Positions 44,637 to 54,043 are shown, numbered from the stretch's first letter. The stretch: DNA of 64,000 nucleotides from Candidatus Nomurabacteria bacterium (GCA_023898605.1 CP060230.1:131944-195943), one strand, 5' to 3'. The notes: generated by a model from the sequence alone, not told the origin. Numbers and translations are program-made.

Positions 44637-44669
44637 CTGTGCCCCGTATCAAACCAATAAATTATAGTG

Positions 44670-44742
44670 TGGGCGACATAAGAATCGAACTTATGACCTC
44701 TGTCTTATCAGGACAGCGTTCTACCACTGAACTAGTCGCCCA
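44670..44742 (-). tRNA. tRNA-Ile (anticodon GAU)
   Basis: Reverse complement folds as GGGCGAC-TA-GTTCAGTGGTAGAAC-GC-TGTCC/CTGATAA/GGACA..., T-arm GTTCGATTC, acceptor GTCGCCC + A. The anticodon loop CTGATAA gives GAT. No encoded CCA. Confidence 0.85.
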
Positions 44743-49015: not shown

Positions 49016-50764
49016 TCAAGAAGAGTGGGCGTTTGTCACTCCAAAAGTCATATGATCCTTGAAAAACTCCATATTTGTTCTGACTTTTTTGTTTGGATTG
49101 AATATATTTTGTGGATCAAATATATCTTTTGTTTCTTCGAAAAGATTGATGACTTCTCTGTCGTACATCATAGATAGATACGGTGTTCTAACGATACCGT
49201 CGTTGTGCTCTGCCGTTATAGATCCTCCGTATGACAAAACGAGTTTATAAACCTTGTCAGAAAGTTCCAAAACCACATCTTTGAGCGTTGGATCTTTTGG
49301 ATCTACAAGAGGAATTATGTGGAAATTTCCGTTTTCAGCGTGGCCTGCGATTGTGTAAACAAGATTTGGATAAGCCGCAACGAGCTCATTGACCTTGGGC
49401 AAGAATTCAGAGAGATATTCTGACCTAACAATAACATCGTCGATAAACGGAGCAGTTTTTTTACCCGCAACGTGCTTTCTTAGGAGTGCGAAGCTATCAC
49501 GTCTCATCTGCCAGTACTTTTCTGCTTCACGAGAAGACTTGGTAACTCTAACTCTTAGGTTTAGATCCTTGATTACTTCTTTTGCTGCTCGAGCTTTTTT
49601 GTCTATTTCTTTTTCATCTTTGCCGGCATATTCAGAAAGAATGATAAGTTTTGGAACACCGCCAAAGAGTGTCATCAAAACTTCTGGCAAGAATTCTAGA
49701 CCGAACTTGAGTGTAGAAAAGAATCCCTTGTTTTTTACAAAATCTTTGAAGAACTTAACTGCCAACCAAAAAGTTTTGTCATCATAAGACTCGATACTTA
49801 TAGGCCCTGTCGCTAGAAGTCTGTCTACAATCTCACCTATATTGTTGAAATCTTTCAAGAATACAACCATTAGTTTTGATTTTGGAATAGCGTCTACAAG
49901 ATAAAACTTGATCTTCGTAACAGCACAAAGTGTGCCCTGTGATCCAACAACAAGCTTACATAGATCGAAAACGTCTTCCATCTCGTCGCCACTTTCTGAT
50001 TTTGTAAGTACATTCCACAAGTAATATCCTGCAGAGTTTTTTGTGACGTTTGGCTTGGCAGCGGCTATAGTTATCTCGTTTGATTTGATAAGTTCATACA
50101 TTCTTTTGTATATTTCACCCTCTGCTGTTTGTTCTGTGATTTTTTTGTAAAGCTCTCTTCTTGTTATAGGTTTTATTGTATATATATTTCCATCACGCAA
50201 AACAACTTCAAGCTCTGCTACATAGTCTTCTGTTTTTCCATAGCGAAGTGTAAGTTCTCCACCAGAGTTATTTCCAACCATACCACCAAGAGCGTTGAGA
50301 GACTTGGAGGCTGTGTAGCATGGGAGAAGTAGTCCCTTGTCTTTTGCTAGAGGTTCAAAATCTCGATAATAAACACCTGGGTCAACAACTGTATATCCTG
50401 TGACTTTCACTTCTTGTGAGCATGGAAAAACAGGTAGGATTTTTATAGGTTTTTTTAGTTTTTCTATAACATGAACTTTGTTCATGAATCTTGTTGTGTC
50501 CAAAACAAAAGATTCCCCCAATGGTCCACCAGACATACATGTTCCAGCGGCTCTCATCGTTATATTGATCTTCTGATCATGAGGAAGATTTCTATTTTGA
50601 TCATTTATCCATTTTGTGAGGTTCGATACGTCTTCGCTATCTTTTGGAAAAAGAACTATTTGGGGTTTGATAGAAAATATACTTGCATCATGACTGTATT
50701 TCTCCAATGTTTCATCTGAATTTTCTATGTCACCTTTCCAAAACTTTTTTATTTCTTGAATCAT
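49016..50764 (-). CDS. FAD-linked oxidase (PCMH-type FAD-binding + C-terminal oxidase domain; GlcD/D-lactate dehydrogenase-like)
   Basis: LEKYSHDASIFSIKPQIVLFPKDSEDVSNLTKWIN...RAAGTCMSGGPLGESFVLDTTRF; C-terminal ...HAENGNFHII.... The start is set at the internal Met (MIQEIKK); the longest ORF (to 50875) would overlap the RT gene by 65 nt. Confidence 0.75.
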   Translation of the reverse strand: MIQEIKKFWKGDIENSDETLEKYSHDASIFSIKPQIVLFPKDSEDVSNLTKWINDQNRNLPHDQKINITMRAAGTCMSGGPLGESFVLDTTRFMNKVHVIEKLKKPIKILPVFPCSQEVKVTGYTVVDPGVYYRDFEPLAKDKGLLLPCYTASKSLNALGGMVGNNSGGELTLRYGKTEDYVAELEVVLRDGNIYTIKPITRRELYKKITEQTAEGEIYKRMYELIKSNEITIAAAKPNVTKNSAGYYLWNVLTKSESGDEMEDVFDLCKLVVGSQGTLCAVTKIKFYLVDAIPKSKLMVVFLKDFNNIGEIVDRLLATGPISIESYDDKTFWLAVKFFKDFVKNKGFFSTLKFGLEFLPEVLMTLFGGVPKLIILSEYAGKDEKEIDKKARAAKEVIKDLNLRVRVTKSSREAEKYWQMRRDSFALLRKHVAGKKTAPFIDDVIVRSEYLSEFLPKVNELVAAYPNLVYTIAGHAENGNFHIIPLVDPKDPTLKDVVLELSDKVYKLVLSYGGSITAEHNDGIVRTPYLSMMYDREVINLFEETKDIFDPQNIFNPNKKVRTNMEFFKDHMTFGVTNAHSS

Positions 50765-50800
50765 AAAATGAATTATATCATGCAAATTTTCTAAAATAAA

Positions 50801-50821
50801 AAGCTGGTTTTTACCCAGCTT
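50801..50821 (-). terminator. Intrinsic terminator at the RT gene end (aagctgg-gtaaaaa-ccagctt followed by TTTATTTT on the minus strand)
   Basis: 7-bp stem whose loop contains the RT stop codon; T-run at 50786-50798. Confidence 0.55.
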
Positions 50822-51809
50822 TGTTGTGAAAACTTTCTCGAAAGATTTCATAATTTTCGACAATCCAATCGTCATCTTTTGTCCAACTATCCACGTTTTT
50901 TGGCACCAGCTTTTTGAATATAGCCATCATGCCGTTGATTTCAGGAAAGTTAGATGGGTCATTCAACCTACCGTTTTCATCCAAACCATAAAGGGCTACG
51001 TGAAGTAATCCTTTTATTTTGGCTCGATAATCACGTGGCAAGAAAAGTTCTCCTTTTGAAACGGTATTTCTGATACCAATTCCATTAATGCTCGCGCCGT
51101 GGTTTTTTGTTAGATCAATTACTTTTGTTTTCCTTTCGGAAATCGTAAATCCCTGATTTCTAACAAAACCAAGTATTGCTTTTCTTTTTCTTTTGCCAAA
51201 TGGCTCTGGTGAAGAGAAGATCAAGTCGTCTCCCATCCTAGAGTATCTGGCATTATATTTATGCGCCAATAAAGCAAGATATATATCGAGCTTATAATGA
51301 GCATATATATTGAAAAGCCAAGGAGAAACAGGAAGCCCCTCTGCAAGAGTCATGTTCGGATCAGTACAATACAAAATCATAGATATAGTCCAATCGATTA
51401 CTGGATTAATCCCATTAATTTGGCAAAATATTTCAACGTAAATACTTGCTTCAATAAGATCCATACTATGATATGCAGACTTTAGATCTGTAACAAACCA
51501 GTGTCTAGGGTAAAACTTTCTGTTTTCTTTGTGATGCTGAAGGGCGGCAATGGGTGGAGTACTGATTCCCTTTATCCACTGATATGCATAAGGAAGATTC
51601 TTTTTATTGTAAACCGGGCTCAATACTTCTTTCATGATATCGTGCATGATTCGAAGAGTTTCGTTTGGTTTACATATAACCCTAACTTTTCTTTTACCAG
51701 AAGAAGAATATGTGACTATTTCTTCTGTTTTATAACCTGGTAAAGGACTTTTGTTTTGTAGTAAAAAATGATCGGTTGGAAAATCAATTGATAATTGTTT
51801 TTCCGACAT
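50811..51809 (-). CDS. Retron-type reverse transcriptase
   Basis: RT motifs close to retron Ec86: A FVTDLKSAYHSM (cf. NIDLEDFFPSL); B GLPVSPWLFNIYAHYKLD (cf. GAPSSPKLANLICSKLD); C YSRMGDDLIFS (cf. YTRYADDLTLS); D FTISERKTKVI (cf. LVINSKKTCIS); thumb ASINGIGI (cf. KVTGLVIS). 332 aa, no extra domains. Confidence 0.8.
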   Translation of the reverse strand: MSEKQLSIDFPTDHFLLQNKSPLPGYKTEEIVTYSSSGKRKVRVICKPNETLRIMHDIMKEVLSPVYNKKNLPYAYQWIKGISTPPIAALQHHKENRKFYPRHWFVTDLKSAYHSMDLIEASIYVEIFCQINGINPVIDWTISMILYCTDPNMTLAEGLPVSPWLFNIYAHYKLDIYLALLAHKYNARYSRMGDDLIFSSPEPFGKRKRKAILGFVRNQGFTISERKTKVIDLTKNHGASINGIGIRNTVSKGELFLPRDYRAKIKGLLHVALYGLDENGRLNDPSNFPEINGMMAIFKKLVPKNVDSWTKDDDWIVENYEIFRESFHNKAG

Positions 51810-51835: not shown

Positions 51836-51864
51836 TTTATATAAAAAAATAATGTTCATGTCAA
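51836..51864 (-). promoter_or_regulatory. Putative RT-proximal promoter TTGACA-17-TATAAA (minus strand)
   Basis: Reverse strand reads TTGACAtgaacattatttttttaTATAAA about 30 nt upstream of the RT ATG. Confidence 0.4.
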
Positions 51865-51871
51865 TTTATAA

Positions 51872-51898
51872 AAAAGTCCGTGCATTGCACGGACTTTG
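51872..51898 (-). terminator. Hairpin gtccgtgc-att-gcacggac with flanking A/T runs between the putative ncRNA and the RT gene (terminator/attenuator)
   Basis: Perfect 8-bp stem; the minus strand is followed by TTTTTAT. Confidence 0.5.
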
Positions 51899-51899
51899 A

Positions 51900-52195
51900 A
51901 TGAGTTGTGGTACCCTTGTAGAAAATTTTAGATTAGTTTTGTTTGCTTTGTTTTGTTTTTTTGGCTTTAGGCGAAAAAACTCATCAGATTTCGTCTTTCG
52001 TCATAAAATCACGTTAAAGACTAATCTTTGTGAATTGTCATTGCAAATCTCATTTCTAAGATTTACTACTCTGGACATCGATCCAGATATTTTGATTGAT
52101 TGGCTTTAGCCAAAAAAACAAAACTACCTATGATTTAATCTCCCTTCAAAATATACAAAACTATTACTAAAAGATTCAAGGTACCACGTCACCGA
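51900..52195 (-). ncRNA. Candidate retron msr/msd non-coding RNA
   Basis: Upstream of and co-directional with the RT. 8-bp inverted repeats gtggtacc (51907-51914) and ggtaccac (52180-52187) are positioned like retron a2/a1. A perfect 16-bp long-range inverted repeat (51950-51965 gttttgtttttttggc with 52109-52124 gccaaaaaaacaaaac) encloses a ~140-nt hairpin-rich segment. ORF-free. Confidence 0.4.
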
Positions 52196-52230
52196 GATTC
52201 GCCTCTGGTGAAAATATCTTTTTCATATTG

Positions 52231-52259
52231 ATTGTAATTATAAATAAAAATATTTGCAA
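52231..52259 (-). promoter_or_regulatory. Putative promoter for the ncRNA/RT unit: TTGCAA-17-TACAAT (minus strand)
   Basis: Reverse strand reads TTGCAAatatttttatttataatTACAAT, about 35 nt upstream of the a1 repeat. Confidence 0.4.
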
Positions 52260-52279
52260 ATATTTTTTCCACTTTTATC

Positions 52280-54043
52280 CTACTCCAAAATTGCCTTTAT
52301 TCTCCTGACTCCAGCAGACGATGCTTCTTCTTTTTTTATCTTGAAGACCTTGGGCGTCCCATCGGAATTGGCCCCTAGTTCACCAGTGTTTTCTACGTGA
52401 GGTCCACCACAAAACTCTATGCTATATGGATTTCCATTTTCGTCTTCTATAAAGTAGACCGATACTATATCTGGATATTTCGCGCCAAACTCCATTTCTG
52501 CGCCAAGTTTTTCTGCTTCCTCTTTTGGCATTTCTCTTTTTATAACCTTGTATTTCTTCTGTATTGCTTCATTCACCAATCTTTCTACCTCTTTCTTTTC
52601 TTCGTCTGTCATCTTGCGATCAAACGCAAAGTCCATCCTTAGTCTATCTTCTGTTATGTTTGAACCTTTTTGTTTTACCTCATGCCCCAACACTTCCTGA
52701 AGTGCTTTTAGTAGGAGGTGGTGAGCAGTGTGAAGCTTTATGGTTTGTGGTTCATGGTTTACTAGACCGCCCTTAAACATACCAGCCGAAGAACTTTGCG
52801 AAAGATCTTTGTGTTCTTTCATTTTGTTTTCGAAATCTGTCATATCTACAGACACACCTTTTTCTTTTGCGAGTTCAAGTGTCATTTCGATAGGAAAACC
52901 GTATGTTGTAAAAAGAGTAAATGGATCTGTTCCCTTCTCAAACTCTTTTAGTCCAGCCGATAGAGTTTCTCTAAACTTTGTTTCTTCTTTTTGTATAACT
53001 TCTTTTATTTTTACAAGGTCTATATTCTCGTATATATCACCGTATAGATGAACAAATTCTTCTACTATTTCCAGAAGCGCTCCTTCTCTCATGCCAATCT
53101 TTTCGCTTATCCTAACAGCTCTTCTTATAAGTCTTCTTAGTATGTACCCTCGTTCATTGTTAGATGGTAGAACTCCATCAGATATAAGAAACATCGCAGT
53201 TCTAGCATGGTCGGCTATTATCCTTTTTGAAGAAAGGTCGTCAACACTTGTCATAGACTCTATCTTTTCAAAAACTTTTTCAAACAAGTCTGTATCATAA
53301 ACACTTCTTTTGTTTTGTACGGTTGCAAGAAGTCTCTCGAATCCCATACCAGTATCTATACCCAGAGTTTCTGACTTTGTAAGTTTTGCTTCACCTTTGT
53401 CTAGTTTTTCTCTAGAACCGTCGCACATATACTCGTTGAAAACGATATTCCAAACTTCCACATCTTCACCAGCTGCGTTTTTACAATATATTTCTGTTGT
53501 CGGTCCACATGGTCCACTATCTCCAGTTGGTCCCCAGAAAACATCTTCTCCATCTTCTCTTATGTCTTTGATTCCAAGTTCAAGCCATATATCGTGCGAC
53601 TCGGTATCTTTTGGAACAAAGTCATTGCCACGGAAGTAAGTAACATAAGAAATCTCTAAACCAAGCTCTTTTGTGATAAAGTCATGTGCGTAGACTATAG
53701 CTTCGCGTCTTCCATAACCACCCTTGGGCGAGGCAGACTCGCTGGGCCTATAGCCAAAAGAAAAGTTTCCGAGCATTTCGAAGAAAGTAAGGTGTGTAGA
53801 GTCTCCTACTTCTTCTATATCGCCTGTTCTTACGCATTTTTGGATACTAACTACGTTTTTTGACCCGAAGTCTTTGGTAGCGTCGTCTGGATGACTATAA
53901 TAGAGCTTGAATTGTTGCATCCCGGCTGTTGTAAACAAAACAGTAGGATCAGCCTCTGGGACTAGAGAAGAAGACGGTATCCTCTTGTGACCCTTGCTGA
54001 AAAAGTATGCCAAGAACTTCTGTCTTATGTCGCTTGAATTCAT
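52280..54043 (-). CDS. alaS: Alanine--tRNA ligase (catalytic + tRNA-binding + editing domains; lacks C-Ala domain)
   Basis: N-terminal FLAYFFSKGHKRIPSSSLVP...PTVLFTTAGMQQFK; editing HxxxH (HTAHHLL) and CGGPHV motifs; ends after ...SAGVRRIKAILE at 587 aa. Confidence 0.9.
   Translation of the reverse strand: MNSSDIRQKFLAYFFSKGHKRIPSSSLVPEADPTVLFTTAGMQQFKLYYSHPDDATKDFGSKNVVSIQKCVRTGDIEEVGDSTHLTFFEMLGNFSFGYRPSESASPKGGYGRREAIVYAHDFITKELGLEISYVTYFRGNDFVPKDTESHDIWLELGIKDIREDGEDVFWGPTGDSGPCGPTTEIYCKNAAGEDVEVWNIVFNEYMCDGSREKLDKGEAKLTKSETLGIDTGMGFERLLATVQNKRSVYDTDLFEKVFEKIESMTSVDDLSSKRIIADHARTAMFLISDGVLPSNNERGYILRRLIRRAVRISEKIGMREGALLEIVEEFVHLYGDIYENIDLVKIKEVIQKEETKFRETLSAGLKEFEKGTDPFTLFTTYGFPIEMTLELAKEKGVSVDMTDFENKMKEHKDLSQSSSAGMFKGGLVNHEPQTIKLHTAHHLLLKALQEVLGHEVKQKGSNITEDRLRMDFAFDRKMTDEEKKEVERLVNEAIQKKYKVIKREMPKEEAEKLGAEMEFGAKYPDIVSVYFIEDENGNPYSIEFCGGPHVENTGELGANSDGTPKVFKIKKEEASSAGVRRIKAILE

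What the first reader, a model, noticed from the sequence alone, without database searches (positions are those of the whole stretch)
51900..52195. Leader region carries both a1/a2-like repeats and a perfect 16-bp long-range inverted repeat (msd stem or MITE-like TIR)
51950-51965 (gttttgtttttttggc) and 52109-52124 (gccaaaaaaacaaaac) are perfect reverse complements, each adjacent to the small palindrome ggctttagcc/ggctttaggc. They enclose about 140 nt containing further hairpins (ctgga-catcgat-tccag). This could be the long msd stem of a retron ncRNA. Alternatively it could be a ~175-bp miniature inverted-repeat element that landed in the leader. The two readings predict different things: one a single structured RNA, the other additional copies elsewhere in the genome.
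Basis: seen in the sequence. Interest (0 to 1): 0.6.

Follow-up and report, generated by a model that had tools for sequence, protein, structure and literature searches.

The report
Closing stem of a retron-like RNA
The perfect inverted repeat is the stem that clamps shut a conserved, roughly 330-base structured RNA partnered with a divergent retron-type reverse transcriptase in a candidate-phyla-radiation bacterium; it is neither a transposon end nor the retron's DNA-coding hairpin.

Summary
The 17-bp perfect inverted repeat (51950-51966 / 52108-52124) is real and well beyond chance: the longest repeat in 300 shuffles was 14. It is neither an msd stem nor a MITE. It is the innermost segment (P3) of an end-closing helix stack in a ~330-nt minus-strand RNA. 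That RNA lies between a sigma-70-like promoter (52259-52231) and an intrinsic terminator (51897-51873), just upstream of a divergent retron-clade reverse transcriptase (50811-51809).

The same RNA sits at the same syntenic place (alaS-RNA-RT-FAD oxidase) in four distinct relatives whose RT is about 50% identical. There the equivalent helix is 7-8 bp with compensatory changes. It encloses the same conserved hairpins (HpA with loop U-CGAU-G, and HpB) plus a more variable long hairpin, an msr-like/msd-like layout. A second RT clade (38% identity) carries the homologous RNA downstream of the RT, again closed by a covarying helix.

No other copy exists in the window or in 158 related loci, and there is no target-site duplication. 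Best reading: an a1/a2-type closing duplex of a new retron-like ncRNA specific to the candidate phyla radiation, with its own promoter and terminator. This copy has no effector gene. The priming G and cDNA synthesis are untested.

The parts
52231..52259 (-). Sigma-70-like promoter of the ncRNA (TTGCAA-17-TACAAT). The predicted start of the RNA is near 52224.
   Evidence: 9/12 match. Relatives have TTGAC(N17)TAxxxT at the same place after the alaS stop (read by eye).
52193..52203 (-). 5' leader segment GGCGAAuCUC followed by G. It is a candidate partner (PK5) of 51970-51982.
   Evidence: duplex -13.3 kcal/mol, and 6.6% of shuffled leaders do as well. Relatives show analogous complementarity, with one compensatory change in L003.
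52178..52187 (-). P1 5' arm (GUGGUACCUU), the outermost closing helix.
   Evidence: MFE. It is conserved as GUAC(U/C)C / G(A/G)GUAC in relatives, with one compensatory pair.
52155..52172 (-). 5' arms of two further closing helices (UUUUAG and UAGUUUUGU).
   Evidence: MFE (I2/I8).
52108..52124 (-). P3 5' arm (GUUUUGUUUUUUUGGCU). This is one arm of the perfect 17-bp inverted repeat.
52070..52087 (-). Hairpin HpA with conserved loop U-CGAU-G. The stem covaries: CUGGA/UCCAG here, CCAAA/UUUGG and CCAGA/UCUGG in relatives.
   Evidence: CM R1 hits 52020-52111 at 17.4 bits.
52043..52066 (-). Hairpin HpB (10 bp, GAAA loop). Its U-G pairs exist only on the minus strand.
52030..52038 (-). Conserved junction ACAAUUCAC (ACAAUCUCAC in relatives; AUGUAUCUA / GUACUCAC in the second clade).
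51977..52036 (-). Long imperfect hairpin, the msd-like and most variable part. Its core is 51986-52028.
   Evidence: MFE; per-segment conservation.
51970..51982 (-). GAG....UUCGCC, a candidate partner (PK3) of the 5' leader. It lies 3 nt 5' of the P3 3' arm.
51950..51966 (-). P3 3' arm (AGCCAAAAAAACAAAAC), the other arm of the inverted repeat.
51907..51942 (-). 3' arms of the outer closing helices (ACAAAACUA, CUAAAA, AGGGUACCAC).
51900..51906 (-). Conserved AACUCAU between the closing helix and the terminator.
51867..51897 (-). Intrinsic terminator (AAAGUCCGUGCA/UGCACGGACUUU followed by U-run) that ends the ncRNA.
   Evidence: I7; terminator part of the Leu_leader model. A covarying terminator sits at the same place in relatives.
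51836..51864 (-). Separate promoter-like site for the RT (TTGACA-17-TATAAA).
   Evidence: Read by eye. TTGAC boxes lie at the same place in L001, L003, L006 and L007.
50811..51809 (-). Retron-clade reverse transcriptase, 332 aa. The catalytic D and DD are present and the YxDD box reads MGDD.

Best explanation
The inverted repeat is the innermost, 17-bp segment (P3) of the helix stack that pairs the 5' part of a ~330-nt minus-strand non-coding RNA with its 3' part. The full stack is P1 10 bp, then 6 bp, 9 bp and P3 17 bp.

The RNA is a separate transcription unit with its own promoter and intrinsic terminator. It lies next to a divergent retron-clade reverse transcriptase.

P3 encloses 141 nt. 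These contain two conserved short hairpins (HpA, HpB) that are presumably the RT's recognition elements, equivalent to msr. They also contain one long, faster-evolving hairpin that is presumably the template, equivalent to msd.

By position P3 corresponds to the a1/a2 duplex of a canonical retron. It brings the G-containing inner end of the 5' arm (..UGGCU) next to the 3' end of the template, so the RT can start cDNA synthesis there.

Shown: the helix, its conservation and covariation, its strand, the linkage to the RT, and the absence of other copies.

Inferred: that the RT binds HpA/HpB, that the long hairpin is reverse-transcribed, and that P3 serves as the priming duplex.
For: Helix: perfect 17 bp, pair probabilities 0.94-1.0, longest shuffled repeat 14. 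Fold z = -8.2.

Strand: promoter and terminator lie on the minus strand. U-G pairs in HpA and HpB exist only on that strand. MFE is -102.7 on the minus strand against -90 on the plus strand.

Orthology: four distinct relatives (L001, L003, L006, L007; RT 49-54% identical) have alaS-[RNA]-RT-...-FAD oxidase-L25 exactly as in the window. AlaRS is 60% and the FAD oxidase 73% identical. Their RNAs are also strongly structured (z = -6.2).

Helix in relatives: RNAalifold places a helix (AUCGGC/GCUGAU and variants) at the position of P3, with compensatory pairs, around the same HpA and HpB.

Second clade: RTs P0012-P0015 carry the homologous core (HpA, HpB, junction) downstream of the RT. A GC-rich closing helix with two compensatory pairs encloses it. 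The closing helix is therefore kept while its sequence differs completely in three lineages.

msr/msd-like split: HpA plus HpB are 76% identical among relatives. The long-hairpin region is 60% identical, and 47% in the second clade.

RT: best solved relatives are retron Ec83, Ec86 and Ec78 (E 1e-22 to 1e-17), against DRT2 at 5e-8. All the best PADLOC matches are retron RT models. The H of NAXXH and the G of VTG are invariant (definition from PMC7736814).
Against: No transcript or cDNA data exist.

The RNA departs from canonical retrons. A predicted terminator and a second promoter separate it from the RT, and in the second clade it lies 3' of the RT.

No G is invariant immediately after the 5' arm of the closing helix.

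The RT scores far below the curated cut-offs of retron families (62.5 against 235 bits) and is equidistant from all PADLOC retron types. Its YxDD box is MGDD/LGDD.

The window has no effector gene.

A competing 5'-leader/internal pairing (PK5/PK3) could be the real priming duplex.

Only five distinct sequences of the close clade exist. The covariance model built from the relatives finds the window only marginally (17.4 bits, E 0.16).
Confidence: 0.7

Rival explanations
1. Pseudoknot variant. The true a2/a1 priming duplex is the pairing between the 5' leader (GGCGAA.CUC-G, 52203-52193) and the segment just 5' of the P3 3' arm (GAG....UUCGCC, 51982-51970). P3 and the outer helices are then only a structural clamp that forms a pseudoknot with it.
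For: Complementarity sits at equivalent positions with unrelated sequences. Relatives have (U)AUGCUGUUA-G / UAACAGCAU(A); the window has GGCGAA/UUCGCC. In L003 a G-to-U change is matched by C-to-A. L155 of the second clade has a perfect 9-bp GCAAAGUUG/CAACUUUGC. A G follows the leader segment in four of five close-clade RNAs. In the second clade the most variable hairpin directly precedes the candidate a1, and a conserved hairpin follows it.
Against: Shuffle tests are only marginal: 0.05-0.13 in the close clade, 0.30 in L152, and no support in L154 and L158. The two partners sit at opposite ends of a helix stack of about 40 bp, so both structures can coexist only if the stack bends sharply. 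Part of the partner (GAG) is used in the base of the long hairpin in the MFE.
Confidence: 0.25
2. The outer GGTACC repeat is a1/a2 and the 17-bp repeat is the long stem of the msd, so the arms and everything between them are reverse-transcribed.
For: The outer repeat does pair the two ends of the RNA, and retron msd regions form long stems (PMC7736814).
Against: The stem is topped by a 141-nt multi-branched region, not by a hairpin loop. That region holds the most conserved elements of the RNA, whereas msd is normally the variable part. The stretch between the GGTACC arm and the P3 arm, which would have to be msr, is the least conserved segment (39% identity). It mostly pairs with the 3' tail rather than forming hairpins of its own. 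No conserved G follows the GGTACC arm. The second clade has one closing helix and no such outer/inner split.
Confidence: 0.08
3. DRT2-like rolling-circle template. P3 is the basal stem that delimits a 141-nt template loop. Repeated copying would give concatemeric cDNA whose plus-strand sense carries a stop-free, never-ending reading frame. This would explain why RT plus RNA can stand alone without an effector gene.
For: The enclosed length is exactly 141 nt (47 codons). The plus-strand frame of the 69-codon ORF 51900-52109 stays open across the circular junction. Enclosed lengths in relatives are 141, 141, 147 and 143, and L003 and L007 are also circularly stop-free on the antisense strand. 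A 30-nt direct repeat flanks the loop (D2), recalling the ACA-1/ACA-2 repeats of DRT2 (PMC11100668). The window, L155-L158 and others have no effector gene.
Against: Each stop-free frame is expected by chance at 6-17%. L001 fails, L006 passes only with shifted boundaries, and all four second-clade RNAs fail. The open frames are not the same frame relative to the conserved TCGAT in the window and L003 (my reading). The direct repeat is spaced 139 nt apart, not a multiple of 3, and contains TAG. The RT is retron-like, not UG2/DRT2 (25.6 against 390 bits). No junction promoter is evident.
Confidence: 0.05
4. A miniature inverted-repeat transposable element of about 175 bp that landed upstream of the RT.
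For: Perfect terminal-looking 17-bp inverted repeats about 140 bp apart, with AT-rich arms.
Against: There is a single copy in 64 kb, and none in 158 related loci, viral contigs or plasmids. There is no target-site duplication. The interior is orthologous to RNA sequence present in relatives that have only a short helix at this place. The arms are embedded in further nested helices outside them.
Confidence: 0.02
5. A cis-acting leader or attenuator that only regulates RT expression, or a housekeeping small RNA unrelated to the RT.
For: The RNA ends in a terminator just upstream of the RT, and its neighbours are housekeeping genes.
Against: The homologous RNA lies downstream of the RT in the second clade, so it cannot be a 5' leader there. 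It travels with the RT in two unrelated gene contexts: alaS/FAD oxidase, and class I aaRS/TatD. No Rfam family matches it.
Confidence: 0.05

Closest known systems
Canonical retron msr-msd ncRNA with its RT (e.g. Retron-Eco1/Ec86)
   Same: The RT belongs to the retron clade and is about 330 aa. A structured RNA lies beside it on the same strand. The ends of the functional domain are paired by an inverted repeat. Inside are short conserved hairpins followed by one long, more variable hairpin.
   Different: The RNA has its own promoter and terminator and is not in one cassette with the RT. In a sister clade it lies 3' of the RT. The closing duplex is extended by about 25 more base pairs and a side hairpin. 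No invariant branching G is evident. The RT is equidistant from all 13 described types and has MGDD/LGDD instead of YxDD. The element sits in a fixed syntenic chromosomal site among housekeeping genes rather than in a defence island.
Type IV retrons (RT plus 2-TM effector, e.g. Retron-Eco6/Ec48)
   Same: Close relatives L003, L006 and L007/L008 encode a ~117-aa protein with two predicted membrane helices immediately after the RT.
   Different: The window has no such gene: only 46 nt separate the RT stop from the FAD oxidase start. The RT does not score preferentially with any type-specific model. The membrane protein has no PADLOC match.
DRT2 ncRNA (Klebsiella pneumoniae; PMC11100668)
   Same: An RT plus a ~280-330-nt multi-hairpin ncRNA as a possibly self-sufficient pair. 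A region is bounded by a basal stem with short direct repeats at its two ends. In the window the antisense frame is open around the circle.
   Different: The RT family differs (retron-like, not UG2). The open frame is not conserved across relatives. The repeat spacing is not a multiple of three.
MITEs
   Same: Perfect inverted repeats about 140 bp apart in AT-rich DNA.
   Different: Single copy, no target-site duplication, and the interior is an orthologous, covarying RNA.

Membership tests
Retron (RT + msr-msd ncRNA) | RT belongs to the retron clade of prokaryotic RTs | tested here: met
   A profile of 11 homologues hits retron Ec83, Ec86, Ec78 and Ec67 at E 1e-22 to 1e-17 over the whole RT. 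DRT2 scores 5e-8 and group II RT 2e-6. The 25 best PADLOC matches are all retron RT models. The scores are low, however: 62.5 bits against the cut-off of 235 for NF038233.
Retron (RT + msr-msd ncRNA) | NAXXH motif in region X (H most conserved) and VTG in RT7 (G most conserved) (PMC7736814) | tested here: inconclusive
   H93 and G243 are invariant in 11 homologues. The motifs read AALQH / SIEDH and ING / VNG, so N and T are not kept.
Retron (RT + msr-msd ncRNA) | Adjacent ncRNA on the RT strand whose terminal inverted repeats pair, enclosing 1-3 short hairpins and one long stem-loop | tested here: met
   P1-P3 close the RNA; HpA and HpB are followed by a long hairpin. Compensatory changes occur in P3, HpA, HpB and the second clade's closing helix.
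Retron (RT + msr-msd ncRNA) | Conserved branching G at the 3' end of a2 | tested here: inconclusive
   The inner end of the closing 5' arm is G-rich (GGCU, GGC, GGGU) but no single G is invariant. The alternative leader segment is followed by G in 4 of 5 close-clade RNAs.
Retron (RT + msr-msd ncRNA) | ncRNA and RT form one contiguous transcriptional cassette, ncRNA first | tested here: not met
   A predicted intrinsic terminator plus a new TTGACA promoter lies between the RNA and the RT in the window and in four relatives. The RNA is downstream of the RT in the second clade. These are predictions from sequence only.
Retron (RT + msr-msd ncRNA) | Production of branched msDNA | not testable with these tools
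   This needs nucleic-acid analysis of cells that express the RNA and the RT.
Retron (RT + msr-msd ncRNA) | Associated effector gene (tripartite system) | tested here: not met
   In the window the RT stop at 50811 is followed after 46 nt by the FAD oxidase start at 50764. Relatives carry a 2-TM ORF and/or a 214-223-aa ORF with no Pfam or PADLOC match.
Described retron types I-XIII | RT scores clearly best with one type-specific model | tested here: not met
   The window RT scores 67 bits (III-A), 59.6 (I-B), 58.4 (II-A) and 57 (XII). More distant family members score about 100 bits with II-A, VI, XI and XII alike.
MITE | Multiple dispersed copies | tested here: not met
   One copy in the 64-kb window. 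None in 158 related loci, in viral contigs or in plasmids. The rest of the genome was not available.
MITE | Terminal inverted repeats flanked by a target-site duplication that bound an insertion absent from orthologous sites | tested here: not met
   The flanks are gcttt| and |tacct. The interior is present and conserved at the orthologous site of four relatives.
DRT2 | UG2-type RT | tested here: not met
   NF041746 scores 25.6 bits against a cut-off of 390, over the palm domain only. The PDB DRT2 match is E 5e-8 over 87 residues.
DRT2 | Template loop whose concatemer carries a conserved stop-free frame on the cDNA sense | tested here: inconclusive
   The feature is present in the window, L003 and L007, and absent in L001, L006 (exact ends) and the second clade. 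Chance expectation is 6-17% each, and the frames are not homologous.
Any Rfam family | Match at or near the gathering score | tested here: not met
   There are no relevant matches for the window region or for six related loci. The only match is the terminator part of Leu_leader at 25 bits, against a gathering score of 50.

The most novel reading that the evidence does not exclude
RT and RNA form a self-sufficient two-part system whose reverse-transcribed product is itself the active agent, as in DRT2 or DRT9, rather than a sensor for a protein toxin. P3 would act as the basal stem that delimits the template: a 141-nt loop that is circularly stop-free on the cDNA sense. This would explain why the pair is kept intact, at a fixed chromosomal site among housekeeping genes, in genomes such as this one that have no effector gene.
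Probability: 0.1. Interest if true: 0.85.

Novelty: new variant of a known kind. Interest (0 to 1): 0.55.

Why it matters
Retrons are described mostly from Proteobacteria, as mobile tripartite defence cassettes. In the candidate phyla radiation about 80% of known RTs are reported to be DGR RTs (PMC8632793). I found no paper describing retron-like RT/RNA pairs in these bacteria.

This locus shows a retron-clade RT with a large RNA partner that is its own gene. The RNA can sit on either side of the RT. It has been inherited vertically between alaS and a FAD oxidase across lineages whose housekeeping proteins are only 60-73% identical. In several genomes it persists without any effector.

That combination questions whether all retron-like RTs are toxin-antitoxin-style defence modules. 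It also provides a compact, well-delimited RNA (promoter, closing helix, two recognition hairpins, template hairpin, terminator) that could be tested directly in a heterologous host and perhaps used as a new editing scaffold.

Tried and rejected
- Rfam at permissive thresholds, on the region and on six related loci: nothing relevant.
- nhmmer with the relatives' alignment: it found only the relatives, not even the window. The window RNA is too diverged for sequence-only detection.
- A covariance model of HpA plus HpB built from four relatives: it finds the right place in the window only marginally (17.4 bits, E 0.16) and misses the second clade.
- MAFFT alignments that include the window put several stems out of register. 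Helices were therefore assigned by hand, and I did not run the count of structure pairs on them.
- Leader/internal pseudoknot: it was tested with duplex energies against 1000 shuffles and is only suggestive.
- Never-ending-ORF test: see the DRT2-like rival.
- The plus-strand 69-codon ORF 51900-52109 as a real gene: rejected, because no peptide is conserved in relatives.
- More distant RT relatives (25-39% identity; Saccharibacteria, Parcubacteria and others): they do not carry this RNA but a different upstream motif, so they could not be used for covariation.
- Scans of viral contigs, phages and plasmids for the repeat, the RNA or the RT: no useful match.
- A genome-wide search for further copies was not possible.

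Full report
OBSERVATION. The plus strand reads gttttgtttttttggct at 51950-51966 and agccaaaaaaacaaaac at 52108-52124. These are perfect reverse complements over 17 nt, with 141 nt between them (I1). The small palindromes ggctttaggc and ggctttagcc, the internal hairpin tctgga-catcga-tccaga (52070-52087) and the outer GGTACC-containing repeat are all present. In 300 dinucleotide-preserving shuffles of 51866-52262 the longest perfect inverted repeat averaged 8.9 and never exceeded 14. The 17-mer with up to two mismatches occurs nowhere else in the 64-kb window, where 0.07 matches are expected.

SETTING. All genes here are on the minus strand. In order they are an AlaRS gene (52280-54043), a 470-nt gap, a 332-aa ORF (50811-51809) with an RVT_1 domain, a FAD-linked oxidase whose true start is 50764, and ribosomal protein L25. 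The database twin of the RT is annotated from Candidatus Nomurabacteria.

The RT is of the retron kind. A profile of 11 homologues matches solved retron RTs Ec83, Ec86, Ec78 and Ec67 at E 1e-22 to 1e-17 over its whole length, against 5e-8 for DRT2 and 2e-6 for a group II RT. All of the best PADLOC matches are retron RT models. It fits no described type preferentially and lies far below NCBIfam cut-offs. The catalytic aspartates are intact. The H of NAXXH and the G of VTG are invariant. The YxDD box is MGDD in the window, LGDD in close relatives and YLDD in distant ones.

THE RNA. The minus strand of 51866-52200 folds to -102.7 kcal/mol, z = -8.2. The plus strand gives -90. Reading 5' to 3' on the minus strand, the elements are:
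- a TTGCAA-17-TACAAT promoter-like site (52259-52231);
- a leader;
- four nested long-range helices: P1 GUGGUACCUU/AGGGUACCAC, then 6 bp, then 9 bp, then the 17-bp P3;
- inside P3, hairpin HpA (loop U-CGAU-G);
- hairpin HpB (10 bp, GAAA loop, with U-G pairs that exist only on this strand);
- a junction, ACAAUUCAC;
- one long imperfect hairpin of about 60 nt.

After the 3' arms comes AACUCAU, then a 12-bp hairpin with a U-run (51897-51873). One search did not list this hairpin, but (I7), 5 and 10 all show it. Next is a new TTGACA-17-TATAAA site (51864-51836, by eye), and finally the RT start at 51809. Every P3 pair has probability 0.94-1.0 in the ensemble.

RELATIVES. RT homologues of 49-54% identity exist on five kinds of contig. 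L001, L003-5, L006/L072 and L007/L008 give four distinct sequences. All have alaS-gap-RT, and where the contig is long enough the FAD oxidase and L25 follow. AlaRS is 60% and the oxidase 73% identical to the window's. The element has therefore sat at this site throughout the divergence of these lineages.

The gaps hold the same RNA: promoter, leader, GUAC helix, a variable hairpin and an AU-rich helix. They also hold a 7-8-bp helix (AUCGGC/GCUGAU and variants) exactly where the window has P3, then HpA, HpB, ACAAUCUCAC, one or two hairpins, the 3' arms, GAACUCAU, a terminator, a TTGAC promoter and the RT. RNAalifold on the four relatives recovers P1, the P3 equivalent, HpA, HpB and the terminator, with 14 pairs showing compensatory changes. 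L001 folds with z = -6.2. HpA covaries between the window (CUGGA/UCCAG) and the relatives (CCAAA/UUUGG, CCAGA/UCUGG, and an extended stem UUG/UAA against UCA/UGA). The loop stays UCGAUG throughout.

A covariance model of HpA plus HpB from the relatives picks out 52020-52111 in the window, but only at 17.4 bits, E 0.16 in 115 kb. Sequence-only nhmmer does not find the window.

A SECOND CLADE. A profile search added RTs of 38% identity, P0012-P0015. Their loci (L152, L154-L158) have the RT immediately after a class I aminoacyl-tRNA synthetase gene, with a 350-490-nt gap after the RT. That gap holds a strongly structured RNA (z = -6.8) with recognisably the same core:
- an A-rich lead-in;
- HpA with loop AAU(C/U)CA(U/C)G;
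- HpB;
- a junction, AUGUAUCUA/GUACUCAC;
- a variable hairpin;
- a conserved hairpin.

All of this is enclosed by a GC-rich closing helix with two compensatory pairs and followed by a terminator.

Three conclusions follow. The RNA goes with the RT in two unrelated gene contexts and on either side of it. It is therefore not a 5' leader of the RT, nor a housekeeping RNA that happens to be there. And a core-enclosing helix is a constant of the family while its sequence is free: 17 bp AU-rich in the window, 7-8 bp mixed in the close relatives, and about 8-12 bp GC-rich in the second clade.

WHAT THE REPEAT IS. By position it is the duplex that closes the functional core. Among relatives HpA plus HpB are the best-conserved internal part (76%). 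The long-hairpin region is less conserved: 60%, and 47% in the second clade. This is the pattern expected for RT-recognition (msr-like) elements against a template (msd-like) element. It is also the layout that Mestre et al. give for retron RNAs: ends hybridised, one to three short hairpins, one long stem-loop (PMC7736814).

I therefore read P3 as the a1/a2-type duplex. This step is inference; no cDNA has been seen.

The 'loop' would be a 141-nt multi-branched region containing the most conserved elements. The presumed msr would be the least conserved stretch (39%) and is mostly paired with the 3' tail.

The MITE reading does not fit either. There is no second copy in the window, 158 related loci, viral contigs or plasmids. 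There is no target-site duplication. The interior is orthologous RNA.

OPEN POINT 1: WHERE PRIMING WOULD OCCUR. A leader segment and the segment just 5' of the P3 3' arm are complementary in the window (GGCGAA.CUC / GAG....UUCGCC). At the equivalent places in the relatives the pairing is (U)AUGCUGUUA / UAACAGCAU(A), with one compensatory change in L003 and a G following the leader segment. L155 of the second clade has a perfect 9-bp counterpart.

Against shuffled leaders the support is marginal: 0.05-0.13 in the close clade and 0.01 for L155. It is 0.30 for L152 and absent in L154 and L158. This could be the real priming duplex, making a pseudoknot with P1-P3. It could also be an alternative conformation, or chance.

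OPEN POINT 2: NO EFFECTOR. In the window only 46 nt separate the RT from the oxidase gene. L003, L006 and L007/L008 have a ~117-aa two-helix membrane protein after the RT, a type IV-like layout. L001 and L003 have a 214-223-aa protein without any family match. L155-L158 and most distant relatives have housekeeping neighbours such as SmpB, GreA and MiaA.

Because RT-plus-RNA pairs that need no protein effector are known (DRT2), I tested that idea. The P3-enclosed loop is 141 nt. The plus-strand frame of ORF 51900-52109 remains open around the circle. L003 and L007 behave likewise, and enclosed lengths are 141, 141, 147 and 143. However, each such frame is expected by chance at 6-17%. L001, L006 (exact ends) and the whole second clade fail. 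The frames are not homologous. The flanking 30-nt direct repeat is spaced 139 nt apart and carries a TAG. I keep this as a low-probability reading.

COMPARISON AND NOVELTY. The closest known thing is a canonical retron. The differences are:
- an RNA with its own promoter and terminator;
- variable placement relative to the RT;
- a much extended closing helix;
- no clear branching G;
- an RT equidistant from all described types, with a non-canonical YxDD box;
- vertical inheritance at a housekeeping locus;
- repeated absence of an effector.

I found no description of such elements in candidate-phyla-radiation bacteria. I rate it a new variant of a known kind. The repeat itself is an ordinary RNA helix; the interest lies in the system it belongs to.

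Noticed in passing
window 50764-50811: The window's RT is followed after 46 nt by the FAD oxidase gene, so there is no effector ORF. Syntenic relatives carry a ~117-aa two-transmembrane protein and/or a 214-223-aa protein of unknown family between the RT and the oxidase (L003 5081-5437 and 5488-6159; L001 5108-5752).
   Followed up: partly
window 51234-51236 (RT residue 192): The YxDD box of the RT reads MGDD (codon ATG). The otherwise identical database protein P0001 has L at this residue. Close relatives have LGDD and distant ones YLDD. The tyrosine is thus lost in the whole close clade while both aspartates are kept.
   Followed up: partly
L152 2860-3225, L154 3978-4345, L155 1734-2240, L158 2621-3015: In a sister RT clade (38% identity) the homologous structured RNA lies downstream of the RT, between the RT stop and a TatD gene. 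It has a promoter-like site right after the RT stop and its own terminator.
   Followed up: yes
L009, L010, L013, L075, L077, L088, L096-L098, L106, L109 and others, mostly 60-85 nt upstream of the RT start: More distant RT relatives from the candidate phyla radiation (25-39% identity) share a different conserved element, (G)AACCUCAGCGG - about 35 nt with a C-rich 3' part - CCGCUGA. In L009, L010 and L088 it occurs twice, about 250-340 nt apart. It is probably part of a different RNA partner.
   Followed up: partly
window 51951-51980 and 52090-52119: A 30-nt direct repeat (83% identical, spacing 139 nt) overlaps the two P3 arms and the small GGCUAAAGCC / GCCUAAAGCC motifs. P3 could therefore compete with two local hairpins. 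This may reflect how the unusually long P3 arose.
   Followed up: partly
window 51900-52109 (+): A 69-codon ORF lies antisense to the RNA. The 141-nt P3-enclosed part of it is stop-free when circularised. The peptide is not conserved in relatives.
   Followed up: yes
window 52198-52212: A small hairpin, TTCGCCTCTGGTGAA, was flagged as terminator-like on the plus strand. It overlaps the leader segment that may pair with 51970-51975. No plus-strand gene ends there.
   Followed up: no
window 44669-44741 (-): tRNA-Ile (GAT) is the only Rfam or ARAGORN RNA gene detected in the 64-kb window.
   Followed up: no
L007 1975-2130 / L008 2758-2915: In this relative about 190 nt are inserted between the RNA's terminator and the RT promoter. 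These extra bases are absent from the other close relatives.
   Followed up: no
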